Positions 2,790 through 45,556 of a DNA stretch of 64,000 nt are shown here, in pieces. Origin of the DNA: Victivallales bacterium (GTDB taxonomy: Bacteria; Verrucomicrobiota; Lentisphaeria; Victivallales; JAUVCU01). The notes beneath the pieces were generated by a model, which saw nothing but the letters and a program-made list of their open reading frames with translations, did no database searches and had not been told where the DNA came from. Location of the stretch: NCBI GenBank assembly GCA_029934175.1, contig JAOZMT010000001.1:19286-83285 (forward strand). Direction: 5' to 3'. Every line of letters begins with the position of its first letter. The stretch's first letter is position 1. The position numbers were made by a program, and so were the translations under genes.

Positions 2790-3164
2790 ATGGTAAAAAT
2801 TGACACAATAGAATTACCAGACCTAATTTGGGTAGATGAATTTGATTATCTATCCACATCTTCTTCCAAAGATAGAACTTTGGGATATAATGTCCTAGTC
2901 TGGTCTTCCAAGAATAAATTCCAAAGAAATATTACATTGCAAGGTGATGAAAATAGAGCTTGGCTGACAAGGAAACAAGTAAAAGAATTGGAAAAATTAG
3001 CTTCTATTCCAGATGCTGTATTTGATTTTGAATATAATGGGAAAAAATATAAAGTTAGATTCAGACATGAAGATGTTCCAATTGAAGTATATCCAATTTT
3101 GCCAAGAACTAATCCAGATGATAAAGATTATTATTATGGAACTATAAGATTACAAGAGGTTTAG
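2790..3164 (+). CDS. small tail-associated protein, stand-alone copy of the C-terminal domain of ORF 3172
   Basis: The whole 124 aa aligns by eye with the last ~125 aa of ORF 3172 (LIW.DEF, WLTRKQV, ASIP, YNGK.Y.VRFR.ED.P, PILPR.N..D.DYYYGTI.L). Confidence 0.75.
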   Translation: MVKIDTIELPDLIWVDEFDYLSTSSSKDRTLGYNVLVWSSKNKFQRNITLQGDENRAWLTRKQVKELEKLASIPDAVFDFEYNGKKYKVRFRHEDVPIEVYPILPRTNPDDKDYYYGTIRLQEV

Positions 3165-3171
3165 TTTTTTT

Positions 3172-4770
3172 ATGGGGTGGTTAAGTAATTGGCAATATAG
3201 AAAAAAAATTACCATTCAAGGACAATCAGGTGCTGGAACTGATTATCAAGTACTACTCAAAGTTGGAGAAAGTTCTGGCGCTTCAGGATATGATTTTCAT
3301 GTAGAAGGGCACTCAGCTAATTTTCCAAGTGATAAGAACCAATCTGGCGATTTACGTTTCACTAAAAGCGATGGTACTACTTTACTAAAATTTTGGGTAG
3401 AAAAAGTAGAAGGAACATCTCCTAATCGTGTAGCATATTGCTGGGTAAAAATTGAAGATAATCTTGATAATAATGTAGATATTTATTGCTATTATGGTAA
3501 TTCTAGTACAACTAATGTAAGTAGTGGTGATGATACTTTCCTATTATTTGATGATTTTAATGGTTCTAATTTAGATACGAATAAATGGAATGAGCTTAAC
3601 TCAGGACCTTTATCATTTAGTAATAGTATAATGAGCATAAAAAGTGATACTGAAAATACGAATCATGATATTTATTCGAAAGATGCATTTTCTTATGGAC
3701 ATTGTTTGAGAGGACGGGTGGCAATTAAACAGAAAACATGTTTTGCTTTTGAAAATTCCAATCATACTGAAGGTGTTTTGGAATGGTATGATGCTAGTGA
3801 TAATTGGAACTTTGGTGTTAGAACAGGTGGATCACTTAATTTTGATAGTCTTGGCAGCGCAGATATTGGTGCGTGGCATATAGATGAAATTATATACAAA
3901 TCAGGTGAAGGAAAATTACGTCGAGATGGCGTTGATAAAGCTACTAAAACTTCAGGAGTACCTACTATTGCCCTTCCTGTTAATAGTCGGAGTTGGTCAA
4001 GTACGAACGAGATACAAGTTGATTGGATCGCTGTTCGTAAGTATATTTCTCCAGAACCATCCTTTTCTTCAGCTTCAGGTGAAGAAAAAGAAGTAACAGA
4101 AACTTACGCAATTAATGTATTATTGCAGAATTTAGAGAATAAAAATTATAATATAGATTTATTAGTAAAGAAAATTTTGGATAAAAATTATGATATAAGC
4201 ACATTATTGCAAAAAATTATATATAAGAATTATAATATAAGTTCGTTACTACAAGAATTAATAAGTAAAAATTATGATATAAATTTGTTAATACAACATC
4301 TAAATATTTCTTTTGATTGTTTAATTAATGCTTTATTTCAAGCTACAAAATCATATTCGTATAATCTTGAAATTTCGTTATTTGATACTAATTATATCTT
4401 TTTTGATGGCATGATATTGCAATTAATTTGGAATGATGAGTTTAATAATTCAGAAATAGACGCAATTAAGCGATTGACTTTAGCACAAAGTTATAATATT
4501 CAAGAATTTAATGTATGTGAAAAACCAATTACTTTGGAAGCTACGGAAAATCAAGGTTGGTTAACTAGAAAACAGGTAGAAATGCTTTATCAAAAGGCAT
4601 CAATTCCAAATAAGACATATCCATTGATATATAATGGAAAGCATTATTTAGTTAGATTTAGATGGGAAGATCCACCAGTTATTGATGTAACGCCTATTTT
4701 GCCAAGGCCAAATATGGCAGATGATGATTACTATTATGGAACCATAAAATTAATGCAAATATTAAGATAA
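3172..4770 (+). CDS. DUF2341 + LamG-like fibre/adhesin protein
   Basis: The N-terminus W.YRKKITI..GDLRF..WVK..YCYYGN matches the DUF2341 signature. It is followed by a DDFNGSNLDTNKW concanavalin/LamG-like region and the linker RKYISPEPSFSSAS. Then come four 14-aa KNY.I..LL repeats and a C-terminal ORF2790-like domain. Confidence 0.85.
   Translation: MGWLSNWQYRKKITIQGQSGAGTDYQVLLKVGESSGASGYDFHVEGHSANFPSDKNQSGDLRFTKSDGTTLLKFWVEKVEGTSPNRVAYCWVKIEDNLDNNVDIYCYYGNSSTTNVSSGDDTFLLFDDFNGSNLDTNKWNELNSGPLSFSNSIMSIKSDTENTNHDIYSKDAFSYGHCLRGRVAIKQKTCFAFENSNHTEGVLEWYDASDNWNFGVRTGGSLNFDSLGSADIGAWHIDEIIYKSGEGKLRRDGVDKATKTSGVPTIALPVNSRSWSSTNEIQVDWIAVRKYISPEPSFSSASGEEKEVTETYAINVLLQNLENKNYNIDLLVKKILDKNYDISTLLQKIIYKNYNISSLLQELISKNYDINLLIQHLNISFDCLINALFQATKSYSYNLEISLFDTNYIFFDGMILQLIWNDEFNNSEIDAIKRLTLAQSYNIQEFNVCEKPITLEATENQGWLTRKQVEMLYQKASIPNKTYPLIYNGKHYLVRFRWEDPPVIDVTPILPRPNMADDDYYYGTIKLMQILR
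3190..3558 (+). repeat. DUF2341 cassette, DNA-level copy 1 of 4
   Basis: Long runs are identical in nucleotide sequence to 6228-6593 and 7227-7595 (for example ggtgctggaactgattatcaagtactact, gaaagttctggcgcttcaggatatgattttcatgt). Confidence 0.9.
4100..4345 (+). repeat. tandem 42-bp (14-aa) intragenic repeats KNY(N/D)I..LL......
   Basis: Four consecutive KNY-initiated 14-residue units are visible in the translation, with flanking degenerate units. Confidence 0.8.
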
Positions 4771-4787: not shown

Positions 4788-6188
4788 ATGGCAATATCTA
4801 GATCAGATATTGTATTTGTAAAATCAGAAACAGTTACAGATAGCAATACAAATGGTGGCAGAAAAAGTTATATTGAAATTCCCAATAGGACGAAGTATAA
4901 TTTATTTCCACGTGTGACTAAACCTGAGAGAGATAATGGAATTACAAGATACAGAAAAGAATTTATTTGGAATAAAAATGCTGATAATGAAAGTGTTTTC
5001 GGTGCTATGATTTACTTGCTATTTCCTTCACCCGCAAATGATAGATTTTATTTAGCTTTAGGAACACAGACTGATGTTCAAGGCGATATAGATGATAGTT
5101 ATAAATGGTATTCAGGTGGAAAATTAAATGCTGATGTAACTGCTGGTTCGCAGCAAATCCAAATCTTATTTGAAAGTAATGATGTTTATATTGACAATGA
5201 CCTTTACATTGCGATTTCTTCACAATTCAAAACAAACCAGACTATAGATAGTGGTGTTAAACCGTTTGATCCAGTCTATTATAATGGAAGTAAATGGATA
5301 AAGCAATCTGCACCAAGCCCATCTCAAGAAGATAATTATCCTTATGGAACATATTTGGGCAATAATGTAGTTTTCACTTATCATTCTGAAGGTCATATTG
5401 AATATATAAAAACTGCTAATGACAAATATGAAAATGAAAATTTAAGCGGTTCAGGTTCTGGCCCTTATACTGGACAAAATGGTGGAAAATTATTACATCC
5501 ACCAATAAAAAAACAGACTGTTACTGTTAAATATGCATTTAATGGTATTGATTATGAAGCTACTGATGATGGTAATGGAAACATTACTGGGACAAATGTT
5601 TCAGATGGTAGCGTAAATTATGAAACTGGTGAAATTAGTATAACATTTTCCGATACACCAGATTCTACGCCAACAGTTGATTATTATAAAAGATGCTATA
5701 CTTGGTCTGGTAATGTTTGTACCATAAATCTTGCGGATCAAGTTGCTAATAGTTATAATGCAGACAATACTTATTGTGGCATTTGTCTATCACTTGGCGA
5801 AATAAAAACAAGTCTTTCAGATGTAACTGTGAATTCTGCAAATGGTAATTTTGATGAATCAAAAGTTTCATTAGATAATCAGGGGACTGTGGAAGATACT
5901 TGGACTTTAACTTTTACAGATAGTTCACATTTTACATGTAGTGGTTCACTTGAAGGAAATGTAGGTACAGGAACAATTACATCTAATTTTTCACCAACAA
6001 ATACCAATACATCTAAACCATATTTTACAATAGATTCTACCGCTTGGTCTGGAAGTTTTGAAGCCAATGATAAAATTACATTTAAGACACATCCTTCTGC
6101 CAAAGGAATTTGGTTGAAAGAAGTTGTACCAGCAGGCTCAGATGCATATAGTAACAATGGTATTCTCATGGAAGTTTATATTGAATAA
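4788..6188 (+). CDS. hypothetical tail/baseplate structural protein
   Basis: 466-aa ORF with GGAGG 9 nt upstream. Ser/Thr/Asn/Gly-rich beta-type composition. It is embedded between fibre genes. Confidence 0.75.
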   Translation: MAISRSDIVFVKSETVTDSNTNGGRKSYIEIPNRTKYNLFPRVTKPERDNGITRYRKEFIWNKNADNESVFGAMIYLLFPSPANDRFYLALGTQTDVQGDIDDSYKWYSGGKLNADVTAGSQQIQILFESNDVYIDNDLYIAISSQFKTNQTIDSGVKPFDPVYYNGSKWIKQSAPSPSQEDNYPYGTYLGNNVVFTYHSEGHIEYIKTANDKYENENLSGSGSGPYTGQNGGKLLHPPIKKQTVTVKYAFNGIDYEATDDGNGNITGTNVSDGSVNYETGEISITFSDTPDSTPTVDYYKRCYTWSGNVCTINLADQVANSYNADNTYCGICLSLGEIKTSLSDVTVNSANGNFDESKVSLDNQGTVEDTWTLTFTDSSHFTCSGSLEGNVGTGTITSNFSPTNTNTSKPYFTIDSTAWSGSFEANDKITFKTHPSAKGIWLKEVVPAGSDAYSNNGILMEVYIE

Positions 6189-6209
6189 ATTTGATTGGGA
6201 GGATTAGAA

Positions 6210-9200
6210 TTGAGTTGGTTATCCGATTGGCAATATAGAAAAAAAATCACAATACAAGGCCAATCTGGTGCTGGAACTGATTATCAAGTACTACTAAAAG
6301 TAGGTGAAAGTTCTGGCGCTTCAGGATATGATTTTCATGTGGAAGGCCATTCAGCTAATTTCCCTAGTGATACTAACCAATCTGGTGATTTAAGGTTCAC
6401 TAAAAGCGATGGTACTACTTTACTAAAATTTTGGGTAGAAAAAGTAGAAGGAACATCACCTAATCGTGTAGCATATTGCTGGGTAAAAATTGCTGATAAT
6501 TTAGATAACAATGTAAATATTTATTGTTATTATGGTAATCCTAATGCTGACAATGTAAGTAATGGTGATGATACTTTCATTTTCTTTGATGATGCCTCAT
6601 CCAATAAATCAGCTAATTATGAGTGGGTGGACATTTATGACACTCCATTCTCACCCGTGTTGTTTTATGACTCGGCAAATAAGGAATATGATCTGTCCCA
6701 TTCTGATCACGATAATGAATTTCTCAAAATCAAGGATGTGGCAATATCCAATGTTTGTGCCAGAGCCAAGTTCAAGATCACTGATTCAGAACCTACTAAT
6801 CCAAACGATCAATTTGGTTTTTTTCTAAGACATTCTGGCCTTGCAAGGCCTAATGATAAGGGTTATCTTCTTCGATTCAATAGATTCACCGAGCCAAATC
6901 GTATTAGTATTCATGCAGAAGATGGCGGAATTAATGAGACGAGCCTTGCAACAGCTAATCTTTCCGAAAATATCAATTTAAATGATTTTTATGAATTTGA
7001 AGCTAAAGTTTATGGAAATAATTTTTCTTGTTCAATAAGAAAATTGGATGGCACTGAATTAGCTTCTACATCTGCATCTGATTCTACGTATAATTATGAT
7101 AAAATTGCTGTACAATTTGCTTATCATCAAACTACTAAAGTTTCATTCAAGGATTTAATTATTAGAAAATACATTTCTCCAGAACCATCTTTCTCTTCAG
7201 CTTCAAGTGAATTAAATACAAGTAATTGGAATTATAGAAAAAAAATTACCATTCAAGGACAATCTGGTGCTGGAACTGATTATCAAGTACTACTAAAAGT
7301 AGGTGAAAGTTCTGGCGCTTCAGGATGCGATTTTCACGTAGAAGGCCATTCTGCTAACTTTCCAAACGATACTAATCAGTCTGGCGATTTGCGTTTCACT
7401 AAAAGTGATGGTACTACTCTATTAAGCTTTTGGGTAGAAAAAGTTGAAGGCACATCACCTAATCGTGTAGCATATTGTTGGGTAAAAATTACTGACAATC
7501 TTGATAATAATGTAGATATTTACTGTTATTATGGTAATTCTGGTGCAACTAATATAAGTAATGGTGATGATACTTTCATTTTCTTTGATGATTTTCAGGG
7601 TTCATCACTTGATTCTAACAAATGGGACGGTGATGGCAGTTATTCAGTGGCCGATGGCCATATTACCTTGCAGGCAGGTGGAAATATAAAGTCGAAGAAT
7701 GAATTTGCAATGGAGAACACTACAGTTGAAGCGTTGGTCAAAGTCGATTCTAACTACAGATTGTTACTTGCATATATGGAGCGCAAAGTTCAGTATGATG
7801 TGCCTGGCTCATCTTTTGGAGAATGGCAGTTATGGGATAATAGTGGAAACAAATTAGATCATTTTGATGGATTAGATCCTACTGTTGGTTCATATCAATG
7901 GTGGAAATTACGATATCTTTCGAACGAAATTAAAATTTACTTGGATGCTGATTATGTTGGTAATTTTTCCGATTCTTATAGAACAACTTCTAAAGTTGAA
8001 GCTTATCATTGGTATTCTGGAACAACAGAAATTGATCAATGTCGTATAAGAAAATATATTTCTCCAGAACCATCTTTTCTTTCAGTTTCTACTGAACAAT
8101 TAAATAAATTGAATGTAACCGATTGGCAATATAGAAAGAAAATCACCATCCAAGGCCAATCTGGCGCTGGAACTAATTATCAGGTATTGCTTAAAGTAGG
8201 AGAAAGTCTTGCTCCATCTAGTGCTGATGATAACTTTGATGATAATATAATAAATACTTATTTATGGAAGAAGATAATACATGGCAATAATGTAAAAATA
8301 GAAGAGAAGAATGGAAGGATAGAAGCTTCAATAACTGCTACTGAAGGAACGAATTATGGTCTTTTACAAAGTAAATTTCATTTATCTGGTGATTTTGATA
8401 TCCAAATAGATTTTTCAAATTTAAATCTAGAAAATAAAAATTTCACATTTGCTCGTGGTTTCGAAGTAGTAGTCGATTCATTAAATTATGCCTATTGTCA
8501 ATTGCAGTATGCAAGTGGTACTGGACGAGCATATCATGCTGGAATTAAAGTTAATGGAAATGAAACTTATAATGATATATCTTCAAGTCATACTTCTGGT
8601 AAATTTCGAATTACCAGACAAGGTCAGACATTAACTTGTTATTATTGGGATGGTTCTGATTGGCAGCAGATTCATCAAAGAACAGATTTTTCTACTGAAA
8701 ATGTTTATGTAAATACTTGTTATGTATATAATACTAATCAATGTGGTCAAGTTTCAGTTCATTTTGATAATTTTAAAGTCAATGAAGGAACAATTTTAAA
8801 TTTAAAGCCATTTGATTTTGACGTAGAAAGTCATTCTGCTAACTTTCCTAATGCTAATGATAATTTCGACGATAATATAATAGATAGTTATCTATGGAGA
8901 AAAATAATAAGTGGTAATGTTACTTTAGAAGAGCAAAATGGAAGAATAGAAGCTTCAATATCAGCAACGTCTGGAACTAATACTGGTAAATTAAGAAGTA
9001 AATTTTTCTTGTCTGGTAATTTTGATATCCAAATAGATTTTTCAAATTTGAATTTAGAAAGTAAGGAATTCGGTTTCATACGTCTAGCAATAACTGTTGA
9101 TAGTGACAATTATGCTTATTGCCAAAGAGAATATAGAAATTCTTATGGTCATAATTATTATGCTGGGATTAAAATCAATGGCAGCGAAACCGATGGTCAT

Positions 9201-12200
9201 GTAAGCACGTCTGATACTTCTGGCAAACTTCGAATCACCAGACAAGGTCAAACATTAACTTGTTATTATTGGGATGGTTCTAGTTGGCAACAAATTCATC
9301 AAAGAACAGGCTTTTCGACTAATGATGTCTCAATATCGATTTGTGAAATATATAGTTCTGCTGATCATCCTCAAATATCAGCTTACTTTGACAATTTTAA
9401 AATTAATGAGGGAACAGTTTTAAAGCCGTCAAGCGGTGATTTAAGATTTACAAAAGATGATGAAGTCACTCTATTAGACTTTTGGGTAGAAAAAGTAGAA
9501 GGGACAAGTCCTAATAGAATAGCTTATGTATGGGTAAAAATTTTAGATAATTTAGATAACAATGTGAATATTTATTGCTACTATGGTAATCCTAATGCTA
9601 ATAATGTAAGTAATGGTGATAATACATTTATTTTCTTTGATGATTTTGAAGGAACAGATATTGATACTAATAAATGGACTTTTGTTCAAGGTACTCAAGG
9701 TAATGGAAATTATTCGGTATGGGCTAGTGTTTTAAGCTGGACTCATTTGCCATTTGGAATAAAATACGCTCATGCTGCTTTAGGCAATGCTGCATTACGT
9801 GCACGATACTATCAATTGAATCCAACTGATCATGGCTCTGGTCTTGTTTGGAGAAATGACGTAGAGAATAAGGCAATATTTAATATTTGGAGAGATACAA
9901 ATGATTTGGTTAGGCTTATTGAGACTAATCAAACTGCGCATGATGTTAGTGATAATTTAACTTCTTGGGGTATTCTTGAATTTCTAAAAGATCAAAATGA
10001 CAATATTTCAATCTATTTAAATAGTCGCCAGCAGAATGGATCTTATATCAATTCTTATGATTTAGATGCACTTTATATAGGAAATCGAGGAGAAGCTTCT
10101 TCTTATGATGCCTCGGATTTTAAGTTTGATTGGATATTAATACGTAAGTACATTTCTCCAGAGCCTTTGTTTAGTTCGGTAGGAAATGAGGAAGGAATTG
10201 GAGTTGAAACATATTCTTATAACTATCAGGCCGATTCATTTATAATTCGTTGTATTGATTCAAGTTTGCCATTAGATTCGTTACTTTATCCTTTCCAAAG
10301 AAAATTAGTAAGGAGATCCGATGGTTCTTTTATTGCAGTTTACCATAAGGAAATTAATAATGTTTGTCAAATTTTCTTGGCTTCATCTAATGATAATGGT
10401 ATTACTTGGTCTTCCATACAAATAACAAATAGTTCTTATGATCAAAAATATCCAGCAGTAATAGTAGATACGGAAGATGATGTTCACTTAGTGTGGTTAT
10501 CACAAATTGATTCTAATACTTATAAAATTGCATATGAGTGTCAGTTAAATGGGCAATGGCAAGATACAGAAATTATTGGAGACGCTGTTGAAAATTCAGC
10601 ACCGACAATTACTTTTTCTAATAAAAATGATAATATAATTTACGTAAGTTGGCATAGTCTTGGCAATGAAATTTCTATAAGAAAAAAAATAAATGATTCT
10701 TGGCAATCACCGCATGAATTTTCAACGGGAATTGAACAATTATTTCCATGTATTACAGTTGATAATGATGCGAAATATCATTTAGTCTGGTCTATAAAAA
10801 AAGCGGAAGACCAACCTTATCAAATAGTCTATTCGAATGAAAATAGGTTTCCAGATAAAGATGTACTTGCAGAATCAGAAGGAAATAATTATCCCATAAT
10901 TTTAATCGATTTGAATAATAATATATATGTTTGTTGGCGTGATAAAGGATATGGTAATAATCCTAATTATTATAATATAGTCTATAGAAAAAATGATGGT
11001 AATGGATGGACTAATATTCAAAATATTTCGGATGAAGACCATAATCAATTAGCACCTTCTGCTTCTGCTACAATTGAAAATGATATTTATGCAGTTTGGT
11101 CTGGACTTGGATGGCAAAATAATCCAACATTTTACAATATACAGTATAGAAAATCTGGCCAATCAATTCAATCGGTAACCGATATAGATAGACATCAATG
11201 GTTTCCTAATACTATTTATTCATTATATCCAAAAGTATTTGGAATACACACTAATGTTCCAAAGCAAGGATTTGGTTTTATTTGGCTAGACGATATATAT
11301 CTGAAATTTTACAATTTCAATTTGGATTGGCAATCAGCAATTTGGAAACATTATTCTGTCGATGTTTTATTAGTAAATAAAACAACTAATTTATTAGATG
11401 TTTTATTACGAAAGTTTTTTACTTTAGATTATTCACTAGATTTATTATTGGAGAAACATATTGGTACTATTATTAAAGAAGATGTCACTAATGAAAATCT
11501 TAAATCACAAAGAAGATTAATTAGAAAAGATAATAATTTATACTGTGTTTACATATATAATAATCAGTTATATTTGGCTACTTCTGATGATAATGGCCAA
11601 ACTTGGACAGAAGGACAAGTTACAAATGAAAGTAATCCACAGTCTGAACCTGATATTGCAGTAGATAGTGAAGGATATATTCATATTGTTTGGGTCAATA
11701 ATGGTAATATTTATTATATTAGAAGAATTGAAGAAGGATTTAATACACCTATTCAAATAACTACTGAAGGTGATCAACATTCACCTATAATTATTATTGA
11801 TGCAAATGATAACGGTTATATAACTTGGTATGGAAAAACTAATAATACTTATAACATTTATATTGCTTATTTAAATACGGCTACAGGTCAGATCACGAAT
11901 ATAGAACAAATAACTAACAATAATTTATATGATCAAATCAATCCAATCTTAGCAATAGATGGCTCTTATTTACATCTTATTTGGACAGGAAAAGGTTATG
12001 GTTCTAATCCAAATTTCTATAATTTGCAATATAAACGCAAAGCTTTAGATGGTAATTGGTATCCACAAGAGAACATTACTGATAAACCTTATGATCAAAA
12101 TTTTCCTTCTGCAATTGTGGATTTAGATGGAAATTTAAATGTTGTTTGGCAAGGCAAAGGTTGGGGAAACAATCCAAATACTTGGAATATAATTTTTAGA

Positions 12201-15200
12201 AAACGTACTGCTGCAACTTCGGTCTGGGAAGATGAAGAAATAATTACTGATAAAGCAGAAGATCAAATTCAACCTTCAATAAGTGTAGATAGTTATTCTA
12301 ACATTAATGTCATTTGGACTGGAAAAGCATGGGGATTATTTACGAATCATTTTAATATTCAATATAAACAAAAAACTGCAAGTGCTTGGTCTTCAATAAG
12401 ACATATAACTGATACTTCAAATGATCATTATTGGCCAAATTTTATTTCTAGTATTTATCCAATAATTGATGAAGTACATACTAACATTCCCAAAACAGGT
12501 TATGCTTTTAGTTGGATAGATAAAAGTGATTTAAGATATTATGTTAGTTCAGATTTAGAATGGGAAATACCAGAAAATAAATTTTTGATTGCACAAAATA
12601 TAGATTATTTAGGACAACATCCTTTAGCAAGAGATTCCGATGGAAGATTATGGATTGCATATTCTAAAAAAATAGGTGATTATTATCATATTTTTGTTGC
12701 ATATTCAGAAGATAATGGAAAAACATGGATTGAAGAACAGATTACATCAGGAAATAGGCATCAGAAATATAGCTCCATTGTAATAGATTCATTGAATAAT
12801 ATACATTTGGTTTACTTAGATTGTACGGATCAGTTAAATATTTGTTATAAAAAAGGAAAATTTGGAAATTGGTCAGATGCTGAAATAATAGATACTAGTT
12901 TAGAAGAATTTAATCCAATAACTATTGCAATAGATAGTCAAGATAATATTCATGTTGCATGGAAAAAGTTTGATACTACGGAAAATTTGACCTATATAGC
13001 ATATAAGAAGAAAACCGAAAGTGGATGGCAAAATCTAGAAGAAGCAAGTCCTAAGCATAATTATGATGATTATCCTTACATTGCCATTGATGATAATGAT
13101 AATGTGCACTTAGTTTTTACGGGAAAATATGGGATAAATGGCCATTCCAATGTCCAATATAGAAAAAGGACTAGTTCTGGTTGGCAATCTAGAATAGCTC
13201 TTGAGAATGTAGATTATGAAAGTGAAAATTGTTATCTTTGCTTAGATGATGATGGAAATATTTACGTGTCTTGGAATAGTGGTGCAAATATTTATACTAG
13301 AAGCTATATAAATGGCGAATGGAAAGATAAATATAAACTTACCAATTTGCCAGAAGGAACAGATTTGGTTTCCAAAATTCCCACTTTATCTTCAACCAAG
13401 GGTGGGAAAATACATGTAATATATATAGGAATGACAGAAGATTCGCCGACGCCAATGTATTATCATTCAGAAAAATCTGTAGCAACAACTGATTGGTCTG
13501 ATTCTGAAAATATTTTGGATATATATTCATATTATGAAGGGCCAGAGAGATTGATTTGGGCAAATTGGCCGCAAATATCTTATTTTAAGCCTAATAGACC
13601 AAAATCTGGTTATGCTTTTGTTTATGAAGATTTATTTAATAAGGAATTATGGTTTTTTAGAAGTTTAGATTTGAAATGGGATAAGTTTACTACTGCGACT
13701 GAAAGATTTATACTTTCTTATATCAAATGTAATTTATTAACTGAATCTTCTGTAAATTATCAAGTGGATTTACTGAATTTAAAAGAAAAGTTATGTCAAT
13801 ATAATGTTGATAGTTATTTATGTCTTGCTAAATTATTGAACATTGAAGCATTATTATTAAAGGAACTTTATAAATCTTATGATATAGATTTAAAATTTGT
13901 TGGGATGAAAAAATTAAATGTAAATACTTGCTTGCGCAAGCCAAACATATTAGAATATAATATTGATATGTTCATTATAAAAGATGGTGTGATTTTTTCA
14001 GAAACATTATTAAAAGGTAAAGCAGACTATAATTATTTTTTAGATACTTTGATTCAAGAATTAAATAAAACTTCAAATTATAATGAAGATGTCCTTTTGA
14101 AAATTGAAAAAAGTATAAATCTAAATATAGATTCAATTTTAAAACCTACTAAAAGCTTTGATTTAGACATTTTGTTAAAAGGTTTCGGAATAGTATTGAA
14201 TTATCCAATTGATATGTGTATTAATGATACATATATTTCACAGTTTAATATCGATTCAATTTTGAGTACTTTTGGTAATAAATCTTATTCGGTTGATATG
14301 TTAATTCCAACATTGAACCGTAATGTGATTTCAATTGATATGATTATATCAAATAAATTTACAAAGTCACTTTCATTATCTAATTCTTTAGTTTATAATT
14401 TTAAATCAACCGTTCTTCTACCTTTCTTATTAGATTTAAGAAATGTTTTAATTAATGAATTACTTTCACCAAAATACAAAGGATTTTATTTGAGAAATTC
14501 AATAGCTAATGTTGATATTTTTAAGTCATTGAGTTTAGTTAATAGCTATGAAAAATTTGCAGCAAATCAATCATTGATAAATGAATTGTCAGAAGTATTA
14601 AATAAAATCTTGTATTTATTAAACGCATTGGCCAATATTAATATTGAAAATCGTCAATTTATTGTTAATTCATTACAGCAATTAGTAAAAACTAATCAAT
14701 TACAAAATGAATTAGGTGATGCTTTTTCTTCGATATTAGCGATTTTGAATGATTTAGTTAAACCAATAAGTAAGACAGAAACGATATCTTCTGATATCCT
14801 AAATTATTTAGTAACAAATCAATCATTAAGAAATGAGCTTTCGTATTTGTATCCTTCAGAGCAACAAATAGAAGGAGAAGAAATTTGTACAAGATTTTTG
14901 GAATATAACGATTGGGATATCAAATTAGACGGAACTTCTATAAAAGATAAAGTAACAGAAATTAATGTTTATAGAAGGGAAAGTGAAATTTTCAATCATA
15001 TAGAACTTACAATAGTTGATCCTAAGTTATTTAAGCAATGTGATCCATATTATAATAGTGGATTAGAAAGAATTGAACTAAGGACTAATGACAAAACTAT
15101 GAAATTTTTACTTGAAAGTAGAGAAGGTTCCGAAGAAAATCGTGAATTTAGTATTTGGGGAAGATGCAAAGCAGCAATCTTATCAGAACCATTTTCCATA

Positions 15201-16301
15201 AAAACTAGCTATGTAATTAAAGATAAGAAAGCAAGTGAAATAGCAAAAGAACTTGCAGGAAGTATTGATGTAGATTGGCAAATTTATGATTTTTATGTGA
15301 AAGAATTTACTTATGAAGGCTATCCAATTGACGGAATTTCAAGATTAGCAGAAGTAATAGGTGGTATAGTAAGAACAAAATCTGATGGTTCATTGTTAGT
15401 TAGGTACAAATTTCCAGTAAGACCTAAAGATTTACAAAATGTTAATGCAGTTTATGAATTAGATAGATATTCCAATTTAGTTTCGCTTGACTATAGCGAA
15501 GAAGCGGCGCTGTACGATTCAGTAGAAGTTCGTGGTGCTGATTATTCGGAAATGCAAACTTATTTTTCAATTGAAACAGATAAGACTTGTTTTGAAATAG
15601 GAAAAGAAGATGCAATATTAAGAGTTTATAAATATCCATTTGATGTTGACTATACTGTTTTTTCAACAGATGGGGAAATTACTAAGATAAGCTCTAATAA
15701 AACAGAAGAAATTACAGAAAATATTAATATTGAAAATGAATCTGGAAGTACATCTAAATATATTGATATTTTGACTTCATATGAATGGATAGGTAATATT
15801 AAGAAGAAAAATGAGAAAGAACCTTTGGGAAGTATTGAATTTGATGGAAATAATATTCAATGTACTAATTGTGCAGGCGCTTATCTAAGAGTTAATTATA
15901 AGACTAAATATGATGAATGGAAATTATCATGTGATAAAGAGACGGAAGTTAAATCTATTGTAATTGTTCCAGAAGGTGAAACTGTTGTTTTGAATGTTGT
16001 TATTGGTGACGGGAATAGACCTGCATCTCCAATTCAAGATGAATTGATTACTGAAGAATATATGGCAGTATTAAGAGGACAGGCATTTCTTGATGATAAT
16101 TATTATCAAAAAATAAAACATACTGTGAAGTTACCATATGTAGATATAGAAGATGGTCAAGTTGTTTCATTAGCTGATGATTATTATAATTTATATGGCA
16201 ATTATTTAGTAAAGCAAAGCGATATTAATATTACATTAGAAGAAGATACTTTGAAAATTTGGCTTTCGCTAAATATTGAGAAGTATAGAAAGGTGCTGTA
16301 A
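6210..16301 (+). CDS. giant modular tail fibre / adhesin fused to a hub-like C-terminal domain (3363 aa from TTG 6210)
   Basis: Uninterrupted ORF. GGGAGGA at 6197-6203 is followed by TTG at 6210. That start gives (M)SWLSDWQYRKK, colinear with MGWLSNWQYRKK of ORF 3172; the track start at 6195 is also TTG. Contents in order: four DUF2341+LamG-like modules each ending in RKYISPEP, three propeller units with Asp-boxes S.D.G.TW, a 13-15-aa repeat shaft, and a C-terminal ~470 aa gpD/gp27-like region. Confidence 0.9.
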   Translation: MSWLSDWQYRKKITIQGQSGAGTDYQVLLKVGESSGASGYDFHVEGHSANFPSDTNQSGDLRFTKSDGTTLLKFWVEKVEGTSPNRVAYCWVKIADNLDNNVNIYCYYGNPNADNVSNGDDTFIFFDDASSNKSANYEWVDIYDTPFSPVLFYDSANKEYDLSHSDHDNEFLKIKDVAISNVCARAKFKITDSEPTNPNDQFGFFLRHSGLARPNDKGYLLRFNRFTEPNRISIHAEDGGINETSLATANLSENINLNDFYEFEAKVYGNNFSCSIRKLDGTELASTSASDSTYNYDKIAVQFAYHQTTKVSFKDLIIRKYISPEPSFSSASSELNTSNWNYRKKITIQGQSGAGTDYQVLLKVGESSGASGCDFHVEGHSANFPNDTNQSGDLRFTKSDGTTLLSFWVEKVEGTSPNRVAYCWVKITDNLDNNVDIYCYYGNSGATNISNGDDTFIFFDDFQGSSLDSNKWDGDGSYSVADGHITLQAGGNIKSKNEFAMENTTVEALVKVDSNYRLLLAYMERKVQYDVPGSSFGEWQLWDNSGNKLDHFDGLDPTVGSYQWWKLRYLSNEIKIYLDADYVGNFSDSYRTTSKVEAYHWYSGTTEIDQCRIRKYISPEPSFLSVSTEQLNKLNVTDWQYRKKITIQGQSGAGTNYQVLLKVGESLAPSSADDNFDDNIINTYLWKKIIHGNNVKIEEKNGRIEASITATEGTNYGLLQSKFHLSGDFDIQIDFSNLNLENKNFTFARGFEVVVDSLNYAYCQLQYASGTGRAYHAGIKVNGNETYNDISSSHTSGKFRITRQGQTLTCYYWDGSDWQQIHQRTDFSTENVYVNTCYVYNTNQCGQVSVHFDNFKVNEGTILNLKPFDFDVESHSANFPNANDNFDDNIIDSYLWRKIISGNVTLEEQNGRIEASISATSGTNTGKLRSKFFLSGNFDIQIDFSNLNLESKEFGFIRLAITVDSDNYAYCQREYRNSYGHNYYAGIKINGSETDGHVSTSDTSGKLRITRQGQTLTCYYWDGSSWQQIHQRTGFSTNDVSISICEIYSSADHPQISAYFDNFKINEGTVLKPSSGDLRFTKDDEVTLLDFWVEKVEGTSPNRIAYVWVKILDNLDNNVNIYCYYGNPNANNVSNGDNTFIFFDDFEGTDIDTNKWTFVQGTQGNGNYSVWASVLSWTHLPFGIKYAHAALGNAALRARYYQLNPTDHGSGLVWRNDVENKAIFNIWRDTNDLVRLIETNQTAHDVSDNLTSWGILEFLKDQNDNISIYLNSRQQNGSYINSYDLDALYIGNRGEASSYDASDFKFDWILIRKYISPEPLFSSVGNEEGIGVETYSYNYQADSFIIRCIDSSLPLDSLLYPFQRKLVRRSDGSFIAVYHKEINNVCQIFLASSNDNGITWSSIQITNSSYDQKYPAVIVDTEDDVHLVWLSQIDSNTYKIAYECQLNGQWQDTEIIGDAVENSAPTITFSNKNDNIIYVSWHSLGNEISIRKKINDSWQSPHEFSTGIEQLFPCITVDNDAKYHLVWSIKKAEDQPYQIVYSNENRFPDKDVLAESEGNNYPIILIDLNNNIYVCWRDKGYGNNPNYYNIVYRKNDGNGWTNIQNISDEDHNQLAPSASATIENDIYAVWSGLGWQNNPTFYNIQYRKSGQSIQSVTDIDRHQWFPNTIYSLYPKVFGIHTNVPKQGFGFIWLDDIYLKFYNFNLDWQSAIWKHYSVDVLLVNKTTNLLDVLLRKFFTLDYSLDLLLEKHIGTIIKEDVTNENLKSQRRLIRKDNNLYCVYIYNNQLYLATSDDNGQTWTEGQVTNESNPQSEPDIAVDSEGYIHIVWVNNGNIYYIRRIEEGFNTPIQITTEGDQHSPIIIIDANDNGYITWYGKTNNTYNIYIAYLNTATGQITNIEQITNNNLYDQINPILAIDGSYLHLIWTGKGYGSNPNFYNLQYKRKALDGNWYPQENITDKPYDQNFPSAIVDLDGNLNVVWQGKGWGNNPNTWNIIFRKRTAATSVWEDEEIITDKAEDQIQPSISVDSYSNINVIWTGKAWGLFTNHFNIQYKQKTASAWSSIRHITDTSNDHYWPNFISSIYPIIDEVHTNIPKTGYAFSWIDKSDLRYYVSSDLEWEIPENKFLIAQNIDYLGQHPLARDSDGRLWIAYSKKIGDYYHIFVAYSEDNGKTWIEEQITSGNRHQKYSSIVIDSLNNIHLVYLDCTDQLNICYKKGKFGNWSDAEIIDTSLEEFNPITIAIDSQDNIHVAWKKFDTTENLTYIAYKKKTESGWQNLEEASPKHNYDDYPYIAIDDNDNVHLVFTGKYGINGHSNVQYRKRTSSGWQSRIALENVDYESENCYLCLDDDGNIYVSWNSGANIYTRSYINGEWKDKYKLTNLPEGTDLVSKIPTLSSTKGGKIHVIYIGMTEDSPTPMYYHSEKSVATTDWSDSENILDIYSYYEGPERLIWANWPQISYFKPNRPKSGYAFVYEDLFNKELWFFRSLDLKWDKFTTATERFILSYIKCNLLTESSVNYQVDLLNLKEKLCQYNVDSYLCLAKLLNIEALLLKELYKSYDIDLKFVGMKKLNVNTCLRKPNILEYNIDMFIIKDGVIFSETLLKGKADYNYFLDTLIQELNKTSNYNEDVLLKIEKSINLNIDSILKPTKSFDLDILLKGFGIVLNYPIDMCINDTYISQFNIDSILSTFGNKSYSVDMLIPTLNRNVISIDMIISNKFTKSLSLSNSLVYNFKSTVLLPFLLDLRNVLINELLSPKYKGFYLRNSIANVDIFKSLSLVNSYEKFAANQSLINELSEVLNKILYLLNALANINIENRQFIVNSLQQLVKTNQLQNELGDAFSSILAILNDLVKPISKTETISSDILNYLVTNQSLRNELSYLYPSEQQIEGEEICTRFLEYNDWDIKLDGTSIKDKVTEINVYRRESEIFNHIELTIVDPKLFKQCDPYYNSGLERIELRTNDKTMKFLLESREGSEENREFSIWGRCKAAILSEPFSIKTSYVIKDKKASEIAKELAGSIDVDWQIYDFYVKEFTYEGYPIDGISRLAEVIGGIVRTKSDGSLLVRYKFPVRPKDLQNVNAVYELDRYSNLVSLDYSEEAALYDSVEVRGADYSEMQTYFSIETDKTCFEIGKEDAILRVYKYPFDVDYTVFSTDGEITKISSNKTEEITENINIENESGSTSKYIDILTSYEWIGNIKKKNEKEPLGSIEFDGNNIQCTNCAGAYLRVNYKTKYDEWKLSCDKETEVKSIVIVPEGETVVLNVVIGDGNRPASPIQDELITEEYMAVLRGQAFLDDNYYQKIKHTVKLPYVDIEDGQVVSLADDYYNLYGNYLVKQSDINITLEEDTLKIWLSLNIEKYRKVL
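6228..6593 (+). repeat. DUF2341 cassette, DNA-level copy 2
   Basis: Near-identical nucleotide runs shared with 3190-3558 and 7227-7595. Confidence 0.9.
7227..7595 (+). repeat. DUF2341 cassette, DNA-level copy 3
   Basis: Near-identical nucleotide runs shared with 3190-3558 and 6228-6593. It is preceded by the conserved linker coding for RKYISPEPSFSSAS. Confidence 0.9.
8124..9646 (+). repeat. DUF2341 cassette copy 4, split into three pieces by two tandem paralogous ~195-aa inserts
   Basis: The DUF2341 pieces are 8124-8207 (WQYRKKITI..VGES), 8808-8852 (PFDFDVESHSANFPN) and 9432-9646 (SGDLRFTKDDE..YCYYGN..FFDDF). The inserts 8208-8807 and 8853-9431 both run DNFDDNII..YLW.KII .. RITRQGQTLTCYYWDGS.WQQIHQRT .. 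FDNFK.NEGT. Confidence 0.85.
10270..13685 (+). repeat. three tandem ~355-aa BNR/sialidase-like beta-propeller modules (approximate limits 10270-11335, 11497-12570, 12586-13685)
   Basis: Each unit has one canonical Asp-box (SSNDNGITWS, TSDDNGQTWT, YSEDNGKTWI). Each also has repeated blades of the form D..(D/N)..H(L/I)VW and G(K/L)G(Y/W)G.NPN.(Y/W)N(I/L).(Y/F)(R/K)K. Confidence 0.75.
13700..14870 (+). repeat. ~390-aa array of short-period (13-15 aa) repeats, core (N/S)Y.(V/I)D.(L/I)(L/I)
   Basis: The translation shows NYQVDLL, QYNVDSYL, SYDIDLKF, EYNIDMFI, NLNIDSIL, SFDLDILL, NYPIDMCI, QFNIDSIL, SYSVDMLI and VISIDMII at regular spacing. Shorter versions occur at 11350-11465 and 4100-4345. Confidence 0.7.
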
Positions 16302-26795: not shown

Positions 26796-28289
26796 TTATT
26801 TAGTAGATTCAATGCTTCTAATTTTGTTAATAAATTTGGATAAAATTCGCATATTTACTTTTCTTTTTTCTTTTAAAGTTTTCAACATGAATTCATCTAT
26901 TAAGTTTTTTGTAATATAATAATCCACATATACTGGTTTTTTCTGTCCATATCTATGTAATCTAGCAATACATTGTTTAATTGAACTTGGACTCCACGAC
27001 AATTCACAAAAAATCATTCTATTGCATACATCTTGTAGATTTAATCCATATTTTGCTGTTTCAATTTGTGCTATCAATAAATTTTTTTCATTTTTAAATT
27101 TTCTAATAATTTCATCTCTATTTGAAGCATTTCCTAGCAGAACGACACAATCATCTGGAAAATGATGTGCTAGTATTAATGCAGTTTCTCTAAACCAAAC
27201 CCAAACTATTATTTTTTCATTATTCTTTAGAATTTCTTTAATTTTTTCAATGACCTTATTTATTTTTGAACTTCCAAAATGTTTTATTTTATCATCCAAT
27301 TTAATCCATCCGCTACTAACTTCCATTTCCTTTATCAATCTGTTTTTTATAACTTGTAATTGCGCATCTTCATCTTCAAATATCAATCTTCTAATGTCAT
27401 TTGCTAAAATATATTGTTGCTTGGAAGGTTTTTCAAAAATATAATTTTGTATTAATTTTGCATCTAACGACATTTCCTTTCCCTTCATTACTATACTGTT
27501 GCTTAATACTTTTTTATTTAAATCTTCTTTTGCCCAAGGTCTAACTTTATAAATTGTATATTTACTCGTTCTAACACTATAAAAATAGTATTGCATAAAT
27601 GTATGATAATTGTATGGAAAAGTCCAAGGATTGATAATTGATAATTGCGTAAATAAATCATTTGGTCTATTCATTATTGGTGTTCCACTCAAAATGTATC
27701 TATATTTGATAGGTTTTATTAATCTAATCAATCTTCTGAATGTTTGACTTCTAATGTTTTTTATCCTAGTGCTTTCATCAATAACAATTACTTTTGAATT
27801 TGCATTTTTTAATTTATAAAAAGATTCGGGTATTAATATGCGTTCATAATTAGTTACAATAATACATTGTTTATCTGGTATTTCTTCTTCAGGATAAAGT
27901 ATAACTGGAAATTTTAAATCAAAAAATTTATTCAATTCGCTTTTCCATTGTGCTTTAATAGTCTTTGGACATAAGATTAATCCATTTCCATTGGTTTTTA
28001 TCATCCTATTTATCATTGCAATTGAACTGATATAAGTCTTACCACTTCCAACTTCCAAAAATAAAGCGGCACGAGCGTGCTTCAATACAAACTTGATTAT
28101 TGGAATTTGATAGTCTAAAGGTGGTGTTTTGAGAAAATTAGGCAATTCTATAGATGATTCAAATTTTCCTTGATTGAATAGTTTACAATCATGTTGGTAA
28201 GTTTTAGCCCATTTTTTTAGCTTTACTAAATCAATTTTTTCATCTTCAATTAAATTAGCTCTATGTTTTAAGTTATAGATGCTTAACAT
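26796..28289 (-). CDS. SNF2-family DNA-dependent ATPase/helicase
   Basis: Motif I EVGSGKTY, motif II VIDESTRIKN, motif III LSGTPIMNRPNDLF, motif V KYGLNLQ and motif VI WSPSSIKQCIARLHRYGQKKPV. Confidence 0.9.
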   Translation of the reverse strand: MLSIYNLKHRANLIEDEKIDLVKLKKWAKTYQHDCKLFNQGKFESSIELPNFLKTPPLDYQIPIIKFVLKHARAALFLEVGSGKTYISSIAMINRMIKTNGNGLILCPKTIKAQWKSELNKFFDLKFPVILYPEEEIPDKQCIIVTNYERILIPESFYKLKNANSKVIVIDESTRIKNIRSQTFRRLIRLIKPIKYRYILSGTPIMNRPNDLFTQLSIINPWTFPYNYHTFMQYYFYSVRTSKYTIYKVRPWAKEDLNKKVLSNSIVMKGKEMSLDAKLIQNYIFEKPSKQQYILANDIRRLIFEDEDAQLQVIKNRLIKEMEVSSGWIKLDDKIKHFGSSKINKVIEKIKEILKNNEKIIVWVWFRETALILAHHFPDDCVVLLGNASNRDEIIRKFKNEKNLLIAQIETAKYGLNLQDVCNRMIFCELSWSPSSIKQCIARLHRYGQKKPVYVDYYITKNLIDEFMLKTLKEKRKVNMRILSKFINKIRSIESTK

Positions 28290-45490: not shown

Positions 45491-45500
45491 AAAGTGGGTA

Positions 45501-45528
45501 TTGACTGTAAGACCAATAATGATTATTT
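45501..45528 (+). promoter_or_regulatory. conserved early promoter TTGACT-N13-TGATTATTT (rightward)
   Basis: TTGACTgtaagaccaataaTGATTATTT. It lies inside the track's GTG-started ORF, which argues for the ATG at 45557 as the true start. Confidence 0.7.
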
Positions 45529-45556
45529 ACATCTTAGATTTAGTTTGGAGGTGATC

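What the first reader, a model, noticed from the sequence alone, without database searches (positions are those of the whole stretch)
8124..9646. Domain-in-domain architecture: one DUF2341 module interrupted twice by tandem paralogous ~195-aa lectin-like inserts
The fourth DUF2341 copy is colinear with the other copies but split into three pieces.
- Piece 1 is WQYRKKITIQGQSGAGTNYQVLLKVGES.
- Piece 2 is PFDFDVESHSANFPN.
- Piece 3 is SGDLRFTKDDE...YCYYGN...FFDDF.

Two inserts separate the pieces, at 8208-8807 and 8853-9431. They are clear paralogues of each other: DNFDDNII.(T/S)YLW.KII, FDIQIDFSNLNLE, RITRQGQTLTCYYWDGS.WQQIHQRT and FDNFK.NEGT.

Each insert starts and ends at points that are adjacent in the uninterrupted copies, as expected for loop insertions of a compact ConA-like fold. 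Such a clean double nested insertion is rare. It gives a natural experiment on DUF2341 loop tolerance.
Basis: seen in the sequence. Interest (0 to 1): 0.66.

Follow-up and report, generated by a model that had tools for sequence, protein, structure and literature searches.

The report
Lectin-like domains nested in phage adhesin
One small beta-sandwich (DUF2341) module of a giant phage tail protein carries two related lectin-like domains inserted in neighbouring loops; the layout is real, but it recurs in this protein family and resembles sugar-binding modules inserted into other phage tail proteins.

Summary
Window 8124-9646 lies in a 3368-aa ORF (6195-16301) of a phage tail module. It holds three pieces colinear with three intact DUF2341 copies, at 8124-8207, 8808-8852 and 9432-9659. 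Two ~195-aa paralogous inserts separate them (66% aa, 72% nt identity).

AlphaFold2 models the 512 aa at pLDDT 92 and pTM 0.77. The pieces are under strong purifying selection (pN 0.015-0.17, pS about 0.55).

The inserts are ConA-like jelly rolls. They pass the Pfam threshold for PF07622 and also occur as free-standing small proteins.

The rarity claim fails.
- The same insert sits inside DUF2341 in at least 31 modules of some 20 giant proteins.
- The split two-site layout recurs in a 93%-identical relative and in two ~30%-identical proteins.
- Related viral contigs show the corresponding module with zero, one and two inserts.

The closest known analogue is the "evolved Dit" of siphophages, with CBMs inserted in loops of a galectin domain.

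Most likely function: extra glycan-binding heads on a host-adhesion protein (inferred, not tested). Verdict: a new variant of a known kind, of moderate interest.

The parts
6195..16301 (+). Giant ORF (3368 aa) of the phage tail module. It holds three DUF2341-led modules, three BNR/sialidase-like regions and a C-terminal tail-protein domain.
   Evidence: ORF list and translation. Pfam gives DUF2341 x3, BNR_2 and BNR_4. The C-terminus hits phrog_6079 'tail protein', and the upstream ORF 32-2014 hits tape-measure PHROGs.
8124..8207 (+). Piece 1 of the split DUF2341 structural domain (two beta-strands, WQYRKKITIQGQSGAGTNYQVLLKVGES).
   Evidence: DNA repeat D4 is 88% identical to the reference intact copy. 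27/28 aa are identical to copies 3190 and 6228, with pN 0.015 against pS 0.5-0.6. AF2 gives strands E3-9 and E19-26 at pLDDT 89-95.
8208..8807 (+). Insert A (site 1): a ConA-like domain of the PF07622/DUF1583_C type with its linkers. It replaces the loop SGASG(Y/C).
   Evidence: Pfam PF07622 E 2e-7, 31.0 bits against a cut-off of 22.9. 66% aa identity to insert B and 68% to the single insert of P0001. All-beta, pLDDT 86-98. Foldseek hits to ConA-like folds.
8808..8852 (+). Piece 2 of the split DUF2341 domain (PFDFDVESHSANFPN).
   Evidence: DNA repeat D5 at 78%. pN 0.06-0.11 against pS 0.4-0.8. AF2 pLDDT is about 87-89, with a beta-bridge at residues 232-233 homologous to E36-37 of the intact copy.
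8853..9431 (+). Insert B (site 2): a paralogous ConA-like domain. It replaces the loop D(T/K)NQ, at the same site as the single insert of P0001-P0003.
   Evidence: Pfam PF07622 E 6e-8, 32.6 bits. DUF1349 is weak at 23.3 bits, below its cut-off. DNA repeats D3/D6/D8 match insert A. pLDDT 85-97.
9432..9659 (+). Piece 3 of the split DUF2341 domain (SGDLRF...FIFFDDF). This is the only part covered by Pfam PF10102.
   Evidence: Pfam PF10102 E 4e-16, matching residues 438-507 of the segment. DNA repeat D1 at 77%. AF2 elements E441-444, E450, E453-459, E466-473, E481-487 and H498-501 map one-to-one on the intact copy.
9660..10170 (+). Downstream jelly-roll-like domain of the same module, ending in the linker RKYISPEPLF.
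   Evidence: Translation and linker repeat D7 at 10141-10195. The equivalent domain of the intact module is GH16/ConA-like by Foldseek. This particular copy has no Pfam hit.
3190..3570 (+). Intact DUF2341 structural domain, copy 1 (in ORF 3172-4770).
   Evidence: Pfam and repeats D1, D2, D4, D5.
6228..6608 (+). Intact DUF2341 structural domain, copy 2 (N-terminus of the giant ORF).
   Evidence: Pfam and repeats.
7227..7607 (+). Intact DUF2341 structural domain, copy 3. It was used as the reference model.
   Evidence: Pfam and repeats. The AF2 model of 7227-8100 has pLDDT 91.7 and pTM 0.89.
8583..8690 (+). Patch of insert A that is 86% nt identical to 9207-9314 of insert B, against 64% in both flanks. 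It is a candidate gene-conversion tract.
   Evidence: Sliding-window identity, direct count, and lower synonymous divergence in the patch (pS 0.31 against 0.43-0.64).

Best explanation
**Architecture**
- The region encodes one module of a giant phage tail/adhesion protein.
- A small DUF2341-type structural domain of about 120 aa, predicted to be almost all beta-strand, serves as a scaffold.
- Two paralogous ConA-like jelly-roll domains (PF07622/DUF1583_C type, about 195 aa each) are inserted into the two loops that flank its short middle segment.
- The three scaffold pieces still fold together as in uninterrupted copies. The two inserts project from it as extra heads.

**Function (inferred)**
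- By analogy with fold relatives and with CBM-decorated phage tail proteins, the inserts most likely act as additional glycan-binding (adhesion) units. They would raise the valency or breadth of host-surface recognition.

**Origin (inferred)**
- The site-2 insertion is the common, older state in this family.
- The site-1 copy arose by duplication or recombination of an insert with its own linkers. That event is about as old as the split from the one-insert relative P0001.
- Partial gene conversion between the two copies followed.

**Shown:** the sequence architecture, paralogy, selection on the pieces, recurrence elsewhere, and fold class of the inserts.
**Inferred:** physical co-folding (a model only), glycan binding, and the evolutionary route.
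For: **Colinearity and paralogy**
- DNA repeats D1-D8, the translation and the checked alignment A5.

**Structure prediction**
- The 512-aa AF2 model has pLDDT 92.0 and pTM 0.77. A pTM that high cannot arise from three independently floating units, because the largest is 200 of 512 residues.
- Piece 1 has pLDDT 89-95 and piece 2 about 87-89.
- The intact-copy model has E3-10, E19-26, E36-37, E56-58, E65, E68-74, E81-88, E96-102 and H113-116.
- These map one-to-one on E3-9, E19-26, E232-233, E441-444, E450, E453-459, E466-473, E481-487 and H498-501 of the split copy.

**Selection**
- Against intact copies pS is about 0.5-0.6. pN is 0.015 for piece 1, 0.06-0.11 for piece 2 and 0.15-0.17 for piece 3.

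**Nature of the insert**
- PF07622 scores above threshold, and 24 of 30 family members match it.
- Foldseek hits the GH43 C-terminal sandwich, laminin LG domains and galectins. The DUF1349 structure 3o12 has TMt 0.73.
- The domain is free-standing in 79 small proteins.

**Recurrence and series**
- One-insert relatives are P0001-P0003.
- The same two-site layout occurs in P0121 at 93% identity, and in P0123 and P0133b at about 30% identity.
- 31 nested modules were counted.
- The zero-insert counterpart is L002.

**Context and analogue**
- CBMs inserted in loops of the Dit galectin domain are described in PMC7291167.
- DUF2341 occurs in pilus-tip adhesin-like and giant surface proteins (PMC4858521 and PMC11809585).
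Against: - No coordinates or PAE could be read, so contacts between the pieces and the N-C distance of the inserts were not measured.
- The AF2 alignment contained intact homologues aligned across the three pieces. This builds the hypothesis into the input. The model therefore shows compatibility and confidence, not independent proof.
- No sugar-binding residues or ligands are known for PF07622 or DUF1349. No solved relative was found by sequence.
- The Pfam match to PF07622 covers only the C-terminal third of each insert.
- Insert A is overall closer to the single insert of P0001 (78% nt) than to insert B (72%). A simple recent in-situ duplication is therefore not supported, and the route remains open.
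Confidence: 0.75

Rival explanations
1. Beads on a string. Pieces 1 and 2 are leftover fragments from unequal recombination among the repeated DUF2341 modules. They no longer fold with piece 3. The region would then be a linear array of insert, insert and a truncated DUF2341.
For: - The gene holds several highly similar DUF2341 repeats that could recombine.
- Short degenerate remnants resembling the end of piece 2 precede the first insert in the window (LAPSSA), in P0133b (VGLPTIKSV) and in P0123 (FAGRSLSTIASV). Decay of redundant fragments therefore does happen.
Against: - Piece 1 keeps 27/28 residues while synonymous sites are half saturated: pN 0.015 against pS 0.5-0.6. Piece 2 has pN 0.06-0.11.
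- Pieces 1 and 2 are retained in three independent lineages with the split layout.
- AF2 gives both pieces pLDDT 87-95, with the same strand and bridge pattern as the intact copy, and a whole-model pTM of 0.77.
Confidence: 0.08
2. The inserts are catalytic or enzyme-associated jelly rolls, such as depolymerase accessory domains, rather than lectin-like binding heads.
For: - The top Foldseek hits are the C-terminal beta-sandwich of GH43 beta-xylosidases.
- The module's other jelly-roll domain resembles GH16 glucanases.
- One family member has a weak Glyco_hydro_16 hit.
Against: - The GH43 C-terminal sandwich is not itself the catalytic domain (established knowledge of GH43).
- Sequence identity to all hits is only 7-16%.
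- No glycoside-hydrolase Pfam family reaches threshold on the inserts.
- The family's conserved motifs (GDFDIQ.DF, SGK.R..R.G, YYW.G..W, FDNF) do not match any known catalytic signature that I could identify.
Confidence: 0.12
3. Assembly artefact: a chimeric or mis-joined repeat region that creates an apparent split domain.
For: - Repeated modules are prone to misassembly.
- A related IMG/VR contig (L002) carries a frameshift inside a DUF2341 copy.
Against: - The reading frame is open through all junctions.
- An independently assembled protein, P0121, has the same architecture and the same junction sequences at 93% identity over residues 391-902.
- The two inserts differ at 28% of nucleotides, so they cannot have been collapsed or duplicated by an assembler.
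Confidence: 0.02

Closest known systems
[quoted passage not shown]
   Same: - It is a phage tail/adhesion protein in which one or two carbohydrate-binding modules are inserted into loops of a beta-sandwich (galectin) domain, leaving the host domain intact (PMC7291167).
- The same logic applies here: extra binding heads are displayed from a structural scaffold. Related phages carry none, one or two.
   Different: - The scaffold here is a DUF2341-type domain in a 3368-aa multi-module protein, not the galectin domain of a Dit. No Dit signature was found.
- The inserted fold is a ~195-aa ConA-like jelly roll (PF07622/DUF1349-like), not the BppA-type CBM.
- Binding has been shown experimentally for evolved Dits but not here.
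DUF2341 (PF10102)-containing adhesin-like proteins: large archaeal type IV pilus-associated proteins, pseudopilin fusions, giant Patescibacteria proteins
   Same: - Piece 3 scores 59.5 bits on PF10102.
- The DUF2341 plus jelly-roll module is the same as in hundreds of ~330-aa proteins, several of them labelled Aenigmatarchaeota.
- The literature ties the domain to surface adhesion (PMC4858521, PMC11809585).
   Different: - Here the domain sits in a phage tail protein and is interrupted twice.
- The Pfam model omits the N-terminal ~50 residues. Database architectures therefore show the insert as a neighbour, not as nested.
PF07622 (DUF1583 C domain) and PF07081 (DUF1349) ConA-like domains; solved example 3o12
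   Same: - Both inserts pass the PF07622 threshold.
- Fold match to 3o12 with TMt 0.73 over 188 columns.
- The same domain is free-standing in 79 small proteins and in tandem in P0100 and P0214.
   Different: - The Pfam match covers only the last ~70 residues of each insert.
- DUF1349 is below its cut-off (23.3 against 32.4 bits).
- No function is known for either family.
- Here the domain is nested in another domain.

Membership tests
Pfam PF10102 DUF2341 | Score above the curated gathering threshold (23.4 bits) | tested here: met
   Segment 8124-9646 scores 59.5 bits, E 4.4e-16, over residues 438-507, which is piece 3.
Pfam PF10102 DUF2341 | The full structural domain, including the N-terminal W.YRK.ITI strands outside the Pfam model, is present and colinear with uninterrupted members | tested here: met
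   DNA repeats D4, D5 and D1. In alignment A5, 32 full-length intact DUF2341 segments align to piece 1 and 64 intact-copy rows (full-length or lacking piece 1) align to pieces 2 and 3.
Nested (domain-in-domain) insertion | The parent domain is continuous in homologues, and the insert is absent from them at the same positions | tested here: met
   Three intact copies lie in the window and about 106 intact segments occur in homologues. One-insert forms are P0001-P0003. The zero-insert counterpart is L002.
Nested (domain-in-domain) insertion | The insert is an autonomous domain found on its own elsewhere | tested here: met
   79 proteins of 111-350 aa (most of them 200-350 aa) match the insert profile; the checked ones carry a single insert-type domain. 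Free-standing tandem pairs occur in P0100 and P0214.
Nested (domain-in-domain) insertion | The parent pieces re-form one fold around the insert | tested here: inconclusive
   AF2 gives pLDDT 92 and pTM 0.77, with secondary structure identical to the intact copy at homologous residues. Coordinates and PAE were not available, and the input alignment favoured this outcome.
Nested (domain-in-domain) insertion | The N- and C-termini of the insert lie close together in space | not testable with these tools
   The tools return no coordinates. This is only inferred: the linkers are no longer than about 6 residues and the replaced loops are 4-6 residues long.
Pfam PF07622 DUF1583 C domain | Score above the gathering threshold (22.9 bits) | tested here: met
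   Insert A scores 31.0 bits and insert B 32.6 bits. 24 of 30 aligned family members match. The best-scoring match covers only profile positions ~161-242 of 256.
Pfam PF07081 DUF1349 | Score above the gathering threshold (32.4 bits) | tested here: not met
   Insert B scores 23.3 bits and insert A gives no hit. Only fold-level similarity to 3o12 was found.
Concanavalin A-like lectin/glucanase fold | Jelly-roll beta-sandwich fold | tested here: met
   The model is all-beta. Foldseek gives probability 1.00 to GH43 C-terminal domains, laminin LG domains and galectins, and TMt 0.73 to 3o12.
Concanavalin A-like lectin/glucanase fold | Carbohydrate binding | not testable with these tools
   No ligand-site knowledge exists for PF07622 or DUF1349. 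A profile search found no solved relative.
Evolved Dit (CBM-decorated distal tail protein) | The host protein is a Dit (N-terminal belt domain plus galectin domain directly after the tape measure gene) | tested here: not met
   The giant ORF gives no Dit family in Pfam (whole ORF). PHROGs, run only on its C-terminal 768 aa, gave a tail-protein match (phrog_6079). The scaffold is DUF2341.
Evolved Dit (CBM-decorated distal tail protein) | One or two binding modules inserted in loops of a beta-sandwich domain of a tail protein | tested here: met
   The architecture is shown. The definition comes from PMC7291167. This is functional analogy only.

The most novel reading that the evidence does not exclude
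The DUF2341 structural domain may be a general natural 'display scaffold'. The two loops flanking its middle segment are permissive sites that phages and giant adhesins of uncultivated microbes load repeatedly and combinatorially with binding domains.

**Cargoes seen at these loops**
- ConA-like inserts at site 2, singly or in runs of two or three.
- ConA-like inserts at site 1.
- ConA-like inserts at both sites.
- A ~57-aa Trp/Tyr-rich insert at site 1.

Recombination among modules would generate new receptor-binding combinations. Pfam's truncated model has hidden this nested organisation.
Probability: 0.45. Interest if true: 0.55.

Novelty: new variant of a known kind. Interest (0 to 1): 0.4.

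Why it matters
- **A new scaffold for a known strategy.** Phages are known to insert sugar-binding modules into loops of a structural tail domain ("evolved Dits"). This finding extends that strategy to a different scaffold (DUF2341) and a different inserted fold (PF07622/DUF1349-like).
- **A wider range of carriers.** The case lies in an uncultivated ~121-kb phage. The same nested layout occurs in giant multi-module proteins from metagenomes whose source organisms were not identified.
- **A correction to annotation.** Pfam PF10102 covers only the C-terminal two-thirds of the structural domain. Nested inserts are therefore reported as neighbouring domains.
- **A natural series for experiment.** The zero, one and two-insert series, plus two defined permissive loops, gives concrete constructs. 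They can be used to test loop tolerance and to look for ligands of two families of unknown function.

Tried and rejected

- A word-indexed homologue search with insert B alone returned nothing. This was a wasted search. The exhaustive search and a profile search were needed instead.
- A profile search of PDB sequences with the insert family found no relative.
- tblastn against 50,697 deposited phage genomes found no match.
- An exact look-up of P0016 found no contig. The source is known only as a 121,447-bp NCBI contig.

**Alignment trouble**
- MAFFT repeatedly misaligned the split copy.
- Only the row set, checked, placed the intact homologues on all three pieces. That alignment was used for AF2.

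**Ideas rejected**
- A recent in-situ duplication of insert B is rejected. The two inserts and the single insert of P0001 are roughly equidistant.
- A simple tandem duplication of one contiguous segment is rejected. It cannot produce the order piece 1, insert, piece 2, insert, piece 3 without a second event.
- A mobile-element or intein origin for the inserts is rejected. They show no splicing or endonuclease features. Inteins do occur in other DUF2341 proteins, but at a different site.

Full report
**1. What is there**

The flagged region lies inside a 3368-aa ORF (6195-16301, + strand). The ORF follows a tape-measure-like gene (32-2014, PHROG tape-measure hits). It ends in a domain matching a PHROG 'tail protein' family.

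The rest of the window carries phage-type genes: Lon protease, an SNF2 helicase and two phiEco32-like ligases. The source is an uncultivated phage-like contig of 121,447 bp in NCBI. The module has no match in 50,697 deposited phage genomes.

The giant protein starts with three modules. Each is led by a DUF2341-type domain and ends with the linker RKYISPEP(S/L)F. A fourth DUF2341 copy heads the neighbouring ORF 3172-4770.

**2.

At the DNA level they are colinear with the intact copies at 3190, 6228 and 7227.
- 8116-8207 is 88% identical to the reference copy.
- 8814-8873 is 78% identical.
- 9435-9678 is 77% identical.

The two intervening stretches match each other in register at 72-80%, and at 66% in protein.

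Corrections are small.
- There are four copies, not five.
- The inserts replace short loops (SGASG(Y/C) and D(T/K)NQ) rather than sitting between adjacent residues.
- They are separated by piece 2, so they are not tandem.
- Pfam PF10102 covers only piece 3. What is interrupted is the ~120-aa structural domain, not the Pfam-defined one.

**3. Do the pieces still form one domain?**

Three lines of evidence bear on this.

*Selection.* Against the intact copies, synonymous sites are about half saturated (pS 0.5-0.6). Non-synonymous divergence is far lower.
- Piece 1: pN 0.015.
- Piece 2: pN 0.06-0.11.
- Piece 3: pN 0.15-0.17.

The inserts evolve more freely, with pN/pS about 0.45.

*Structure prediction.* I first obtained an alignment in which intact homologues sit correctly on all three pieces. 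AlphaFold2 then modelled the 512 residues at mean pLDDT 92.0 and pTM 0.77.

A second model, of the intact module 7227-8100, has pLDDT 91.7 and pTM 0.89. Its secondary structure elements map one-to-one on the split copy:

| Intact copy | Split copy |
|---|---|
| E3-10 | E3-9 |
| E19-26 | E19-26 |
| E36-37 | E232-233 |
| E56-58 | E441-444 |
| E65 | E450 |
| E68-74 | E453-459 |
| E81-88 | E466-473 |
| E96-102 | E481-487 |
| H113-116 | H498-501 |

*Recurrence.* The same split layout is retained in other lineages (section 5).

Caveats apply. I could not read coordinates or PAE. The alignment I supplied also carries the hypothesis in it. Co-folding is therefore strongly indicated but not measured.

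**4. What the inserts are**

- Both pass the Pfam threshold for PF07622 (DUF1583 C domain): 31.0 and 32.6 bits against a cut-off of 22.9. Only their last ~70 residues match. DUF1349 stays below threshold.
- In a 30-member alignment of the family, 24 members match PF07622.
- No solved relative is detectable by sequence.
- By fold they are ConA-like jelly rolls. Foldseek hits the GH43 C-terminal sandwich, laminin LG pairs and galectins. The DUF1349 structure 3o12 has TMt 0.73.
- In the viral structure library the best matches are LamG/ConA-type phage tail and adhesin proteins. None shares the whole architecture (TMq at most 0.40).
- The domain also exists on its own, as 79 small single-domain proteins and as free-standing tandem pairs in P0100 and P0214.

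**5. It is not rare**

The exhaustive search and inspection of the hits show the same insert type nested in DUF2341 in at least 31 modules of about 20 giant proteins.
- The usual site is site 2, with one insert (P0001-P0003) or two in tandem (P0122, P0124, P0133a, P0140, P0158, P0187).
- P0131 has modules with an insert at site 1 only.
- The window's split layout (piece 1, insert, piece 2, insert, piece 3) recurs in three places. P0121 is 93% identical over the segment and was assembled independently. P0123 and P0133 module b are about 30% identical.
- In all split forms, a short remnant resembling the end of piece 2 precedes the first insert.
- Other cargoes occur too. A ~57-aa Trp/Tyr-rich insert sits at site 1 in P0007, P0086 and P0108, with only a weak CBM_5_12 similarity. 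An intein-like element sits after GDLRF in P0105 and P0115.

**6. A zero, one and two-insert series**

- P0001 (contig L001) carries the corresponding module, flanked by the same kinds of domains, with a single insert at site 2. It is 66% identical to the giant protein over insert B, piece 3 and the downstream domain.
- IMG/VR contig L002 has the corresponding downstream domain, 55% identical over giant aa 1067-1364. It is preceded by an uninterrupted DUF2341 of a more canonical subtype.
- The window and P0121 have two inserts.

**7. How the second insert arose**

This remains open.
- Insert A, insert B and the P0001 insert are roughly equidistant: 72% nt for A-B, 78% for A-C and 73% for B-C. 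The duplication is therefore about as old as the split from the P0001 lineage.
- Homology between the two inserts runs from the Pro/Ser codon before (N/S)A(N/D)DNFDD to the shared Lys-Pro after EGT(I/V)L. The copied unit was thus the insert with its own linkers.
- A single tandem duplication cannot give this order. Two routes fit: duplication of [piece 2 + insert] followed by decay of the upstream piece 2, or recombination within piece 2 between a site-1 module and a site-2 module.
- A 108-nt patch (8583-8690 against 9207-9314) is 86% identical, against 64% in both flanks. Its synonymous divergence is also lower. This suggests later gene conversion.

**8. Likely function and closest known system**

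DUF2341 is associated in the literature with pilus-tip-like adhesins of archaea and with giant surface proteins of Patescibacteria.

The closest mechanistic analogue is the 'evolved Dit' of siphophages. In it, one or two CBMs are inserted in loops of the galectin domain and bind the host (PMC7291167). The present case works like that but is not a member, because both the scaffold and the inserted fold differ.

I therefore read the inserts as additional glycan-binding heads on a host-adhesion protein. That step is inferred, and an enzymatic role is a minority alternative.

**9. Verdict**

The architecture is real and the domain-in-domain reading is well supported. The claim of rarity is not. 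I rate it a new variant of a known kind, of moderate interest. The most useful by-products are these:
- Pfam's DUF2341 model hides nested inserts.
- Two loops of this domain are recurrent insertion sites.

Noticed in passing
related proteins P0105 and P0115 (not in the window): An intein-like element of about 335 aa interrupts the DUF2341 domain right after GDLRF. It starts with Cys and ends ...SGN followed by Cys, and contains a LAGLIDADG_3 domain. Inteins in an adhesin-type domain are unusual.
   Followed up: partly
related proteins P0007, P0086 and P0108 (not in the window): A 55-60-aa Trp/Tyr-rich insert sits at site 1, after GE(S/N), which is the same site as insert A. It shows only a sub-threshold similarity to CBM_5_12 (E 0.044).
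   Followed up: partly
window 2790-3164 and 4420-4770: The 124-aa ORF 2790-3164 (phrog_4408) is 50% identical (E 5e-30) to the C-terminal ~115 residues of the DUF2341 protein ORF 3172-4770. A small domain is thus encoded both on its own and as a fusion in adjacent genes.
   Followed up: partly
window about 10200-13800 (giant ORF aa ~1340-2540): Three BNR/sialidase-like regions (Pfam BNR_2, BNR_4) follow the DUF2341 modules. This suggests beta-propeller domains in the same tail protein.
   Followed up: no
window about 4140-4400 and about 13700-14900: Both ORF 3172 and the giant ORF contain runs of short Asn/Leu-rich repeats, e.g. NYNIDLLVKKILDKNYDISTLLQKIIYKNYNISSLLQELISKNYDINLL. A related IMG/VR ORF (L002) also aligns to giant aa 2516-2718.
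   Followed up: no
window 8124-9659; alignments: MAFFT repeatedly aligned parts of the insert onto DUF2341 pieces. Examples are KLRITRQGQTLTCYYW with YRKKITIQGQSGAG or SGDLRFT..LL.FW, and the insert's last strand NFKVNEGTILKP with piece 2 DFHVEGHSANFP. This may be only shared beta-strand patterns, but a distant relationship was not excluded.
   Followed up: no
locus L002, about 6100-6170: A frameshift splits an otherwise intact DUF2341 copy at ...SGDL|RFTKNDG... in this IMG/VR contig. It could be an assembly error or a pseudogene.
   Followed up: no
window 38007-39494 (-) and 45494-46996 (+): There are two genes with the phage phiEco32-like COOH-NH2 ligase domain (PF14395). A Lon protease (24279-26501, -) and an SNF2-type helicase (26796-28289, -) are also present.
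   Followed up: no
window 3190-3570, 6228-6608, 7227-7607 and 8124-9659: Pfam PF10102 (84 positions) starts at SGDLRF. It omits the N-terminal ~50 residues (W.YRK.ITI strands and the middle segment), which AF2 models with the rest of the copy at pLDDT 96-98 (residues 1-120). Domain-architecture databases will therefore miss insertions in this part.
   Followed up: yes
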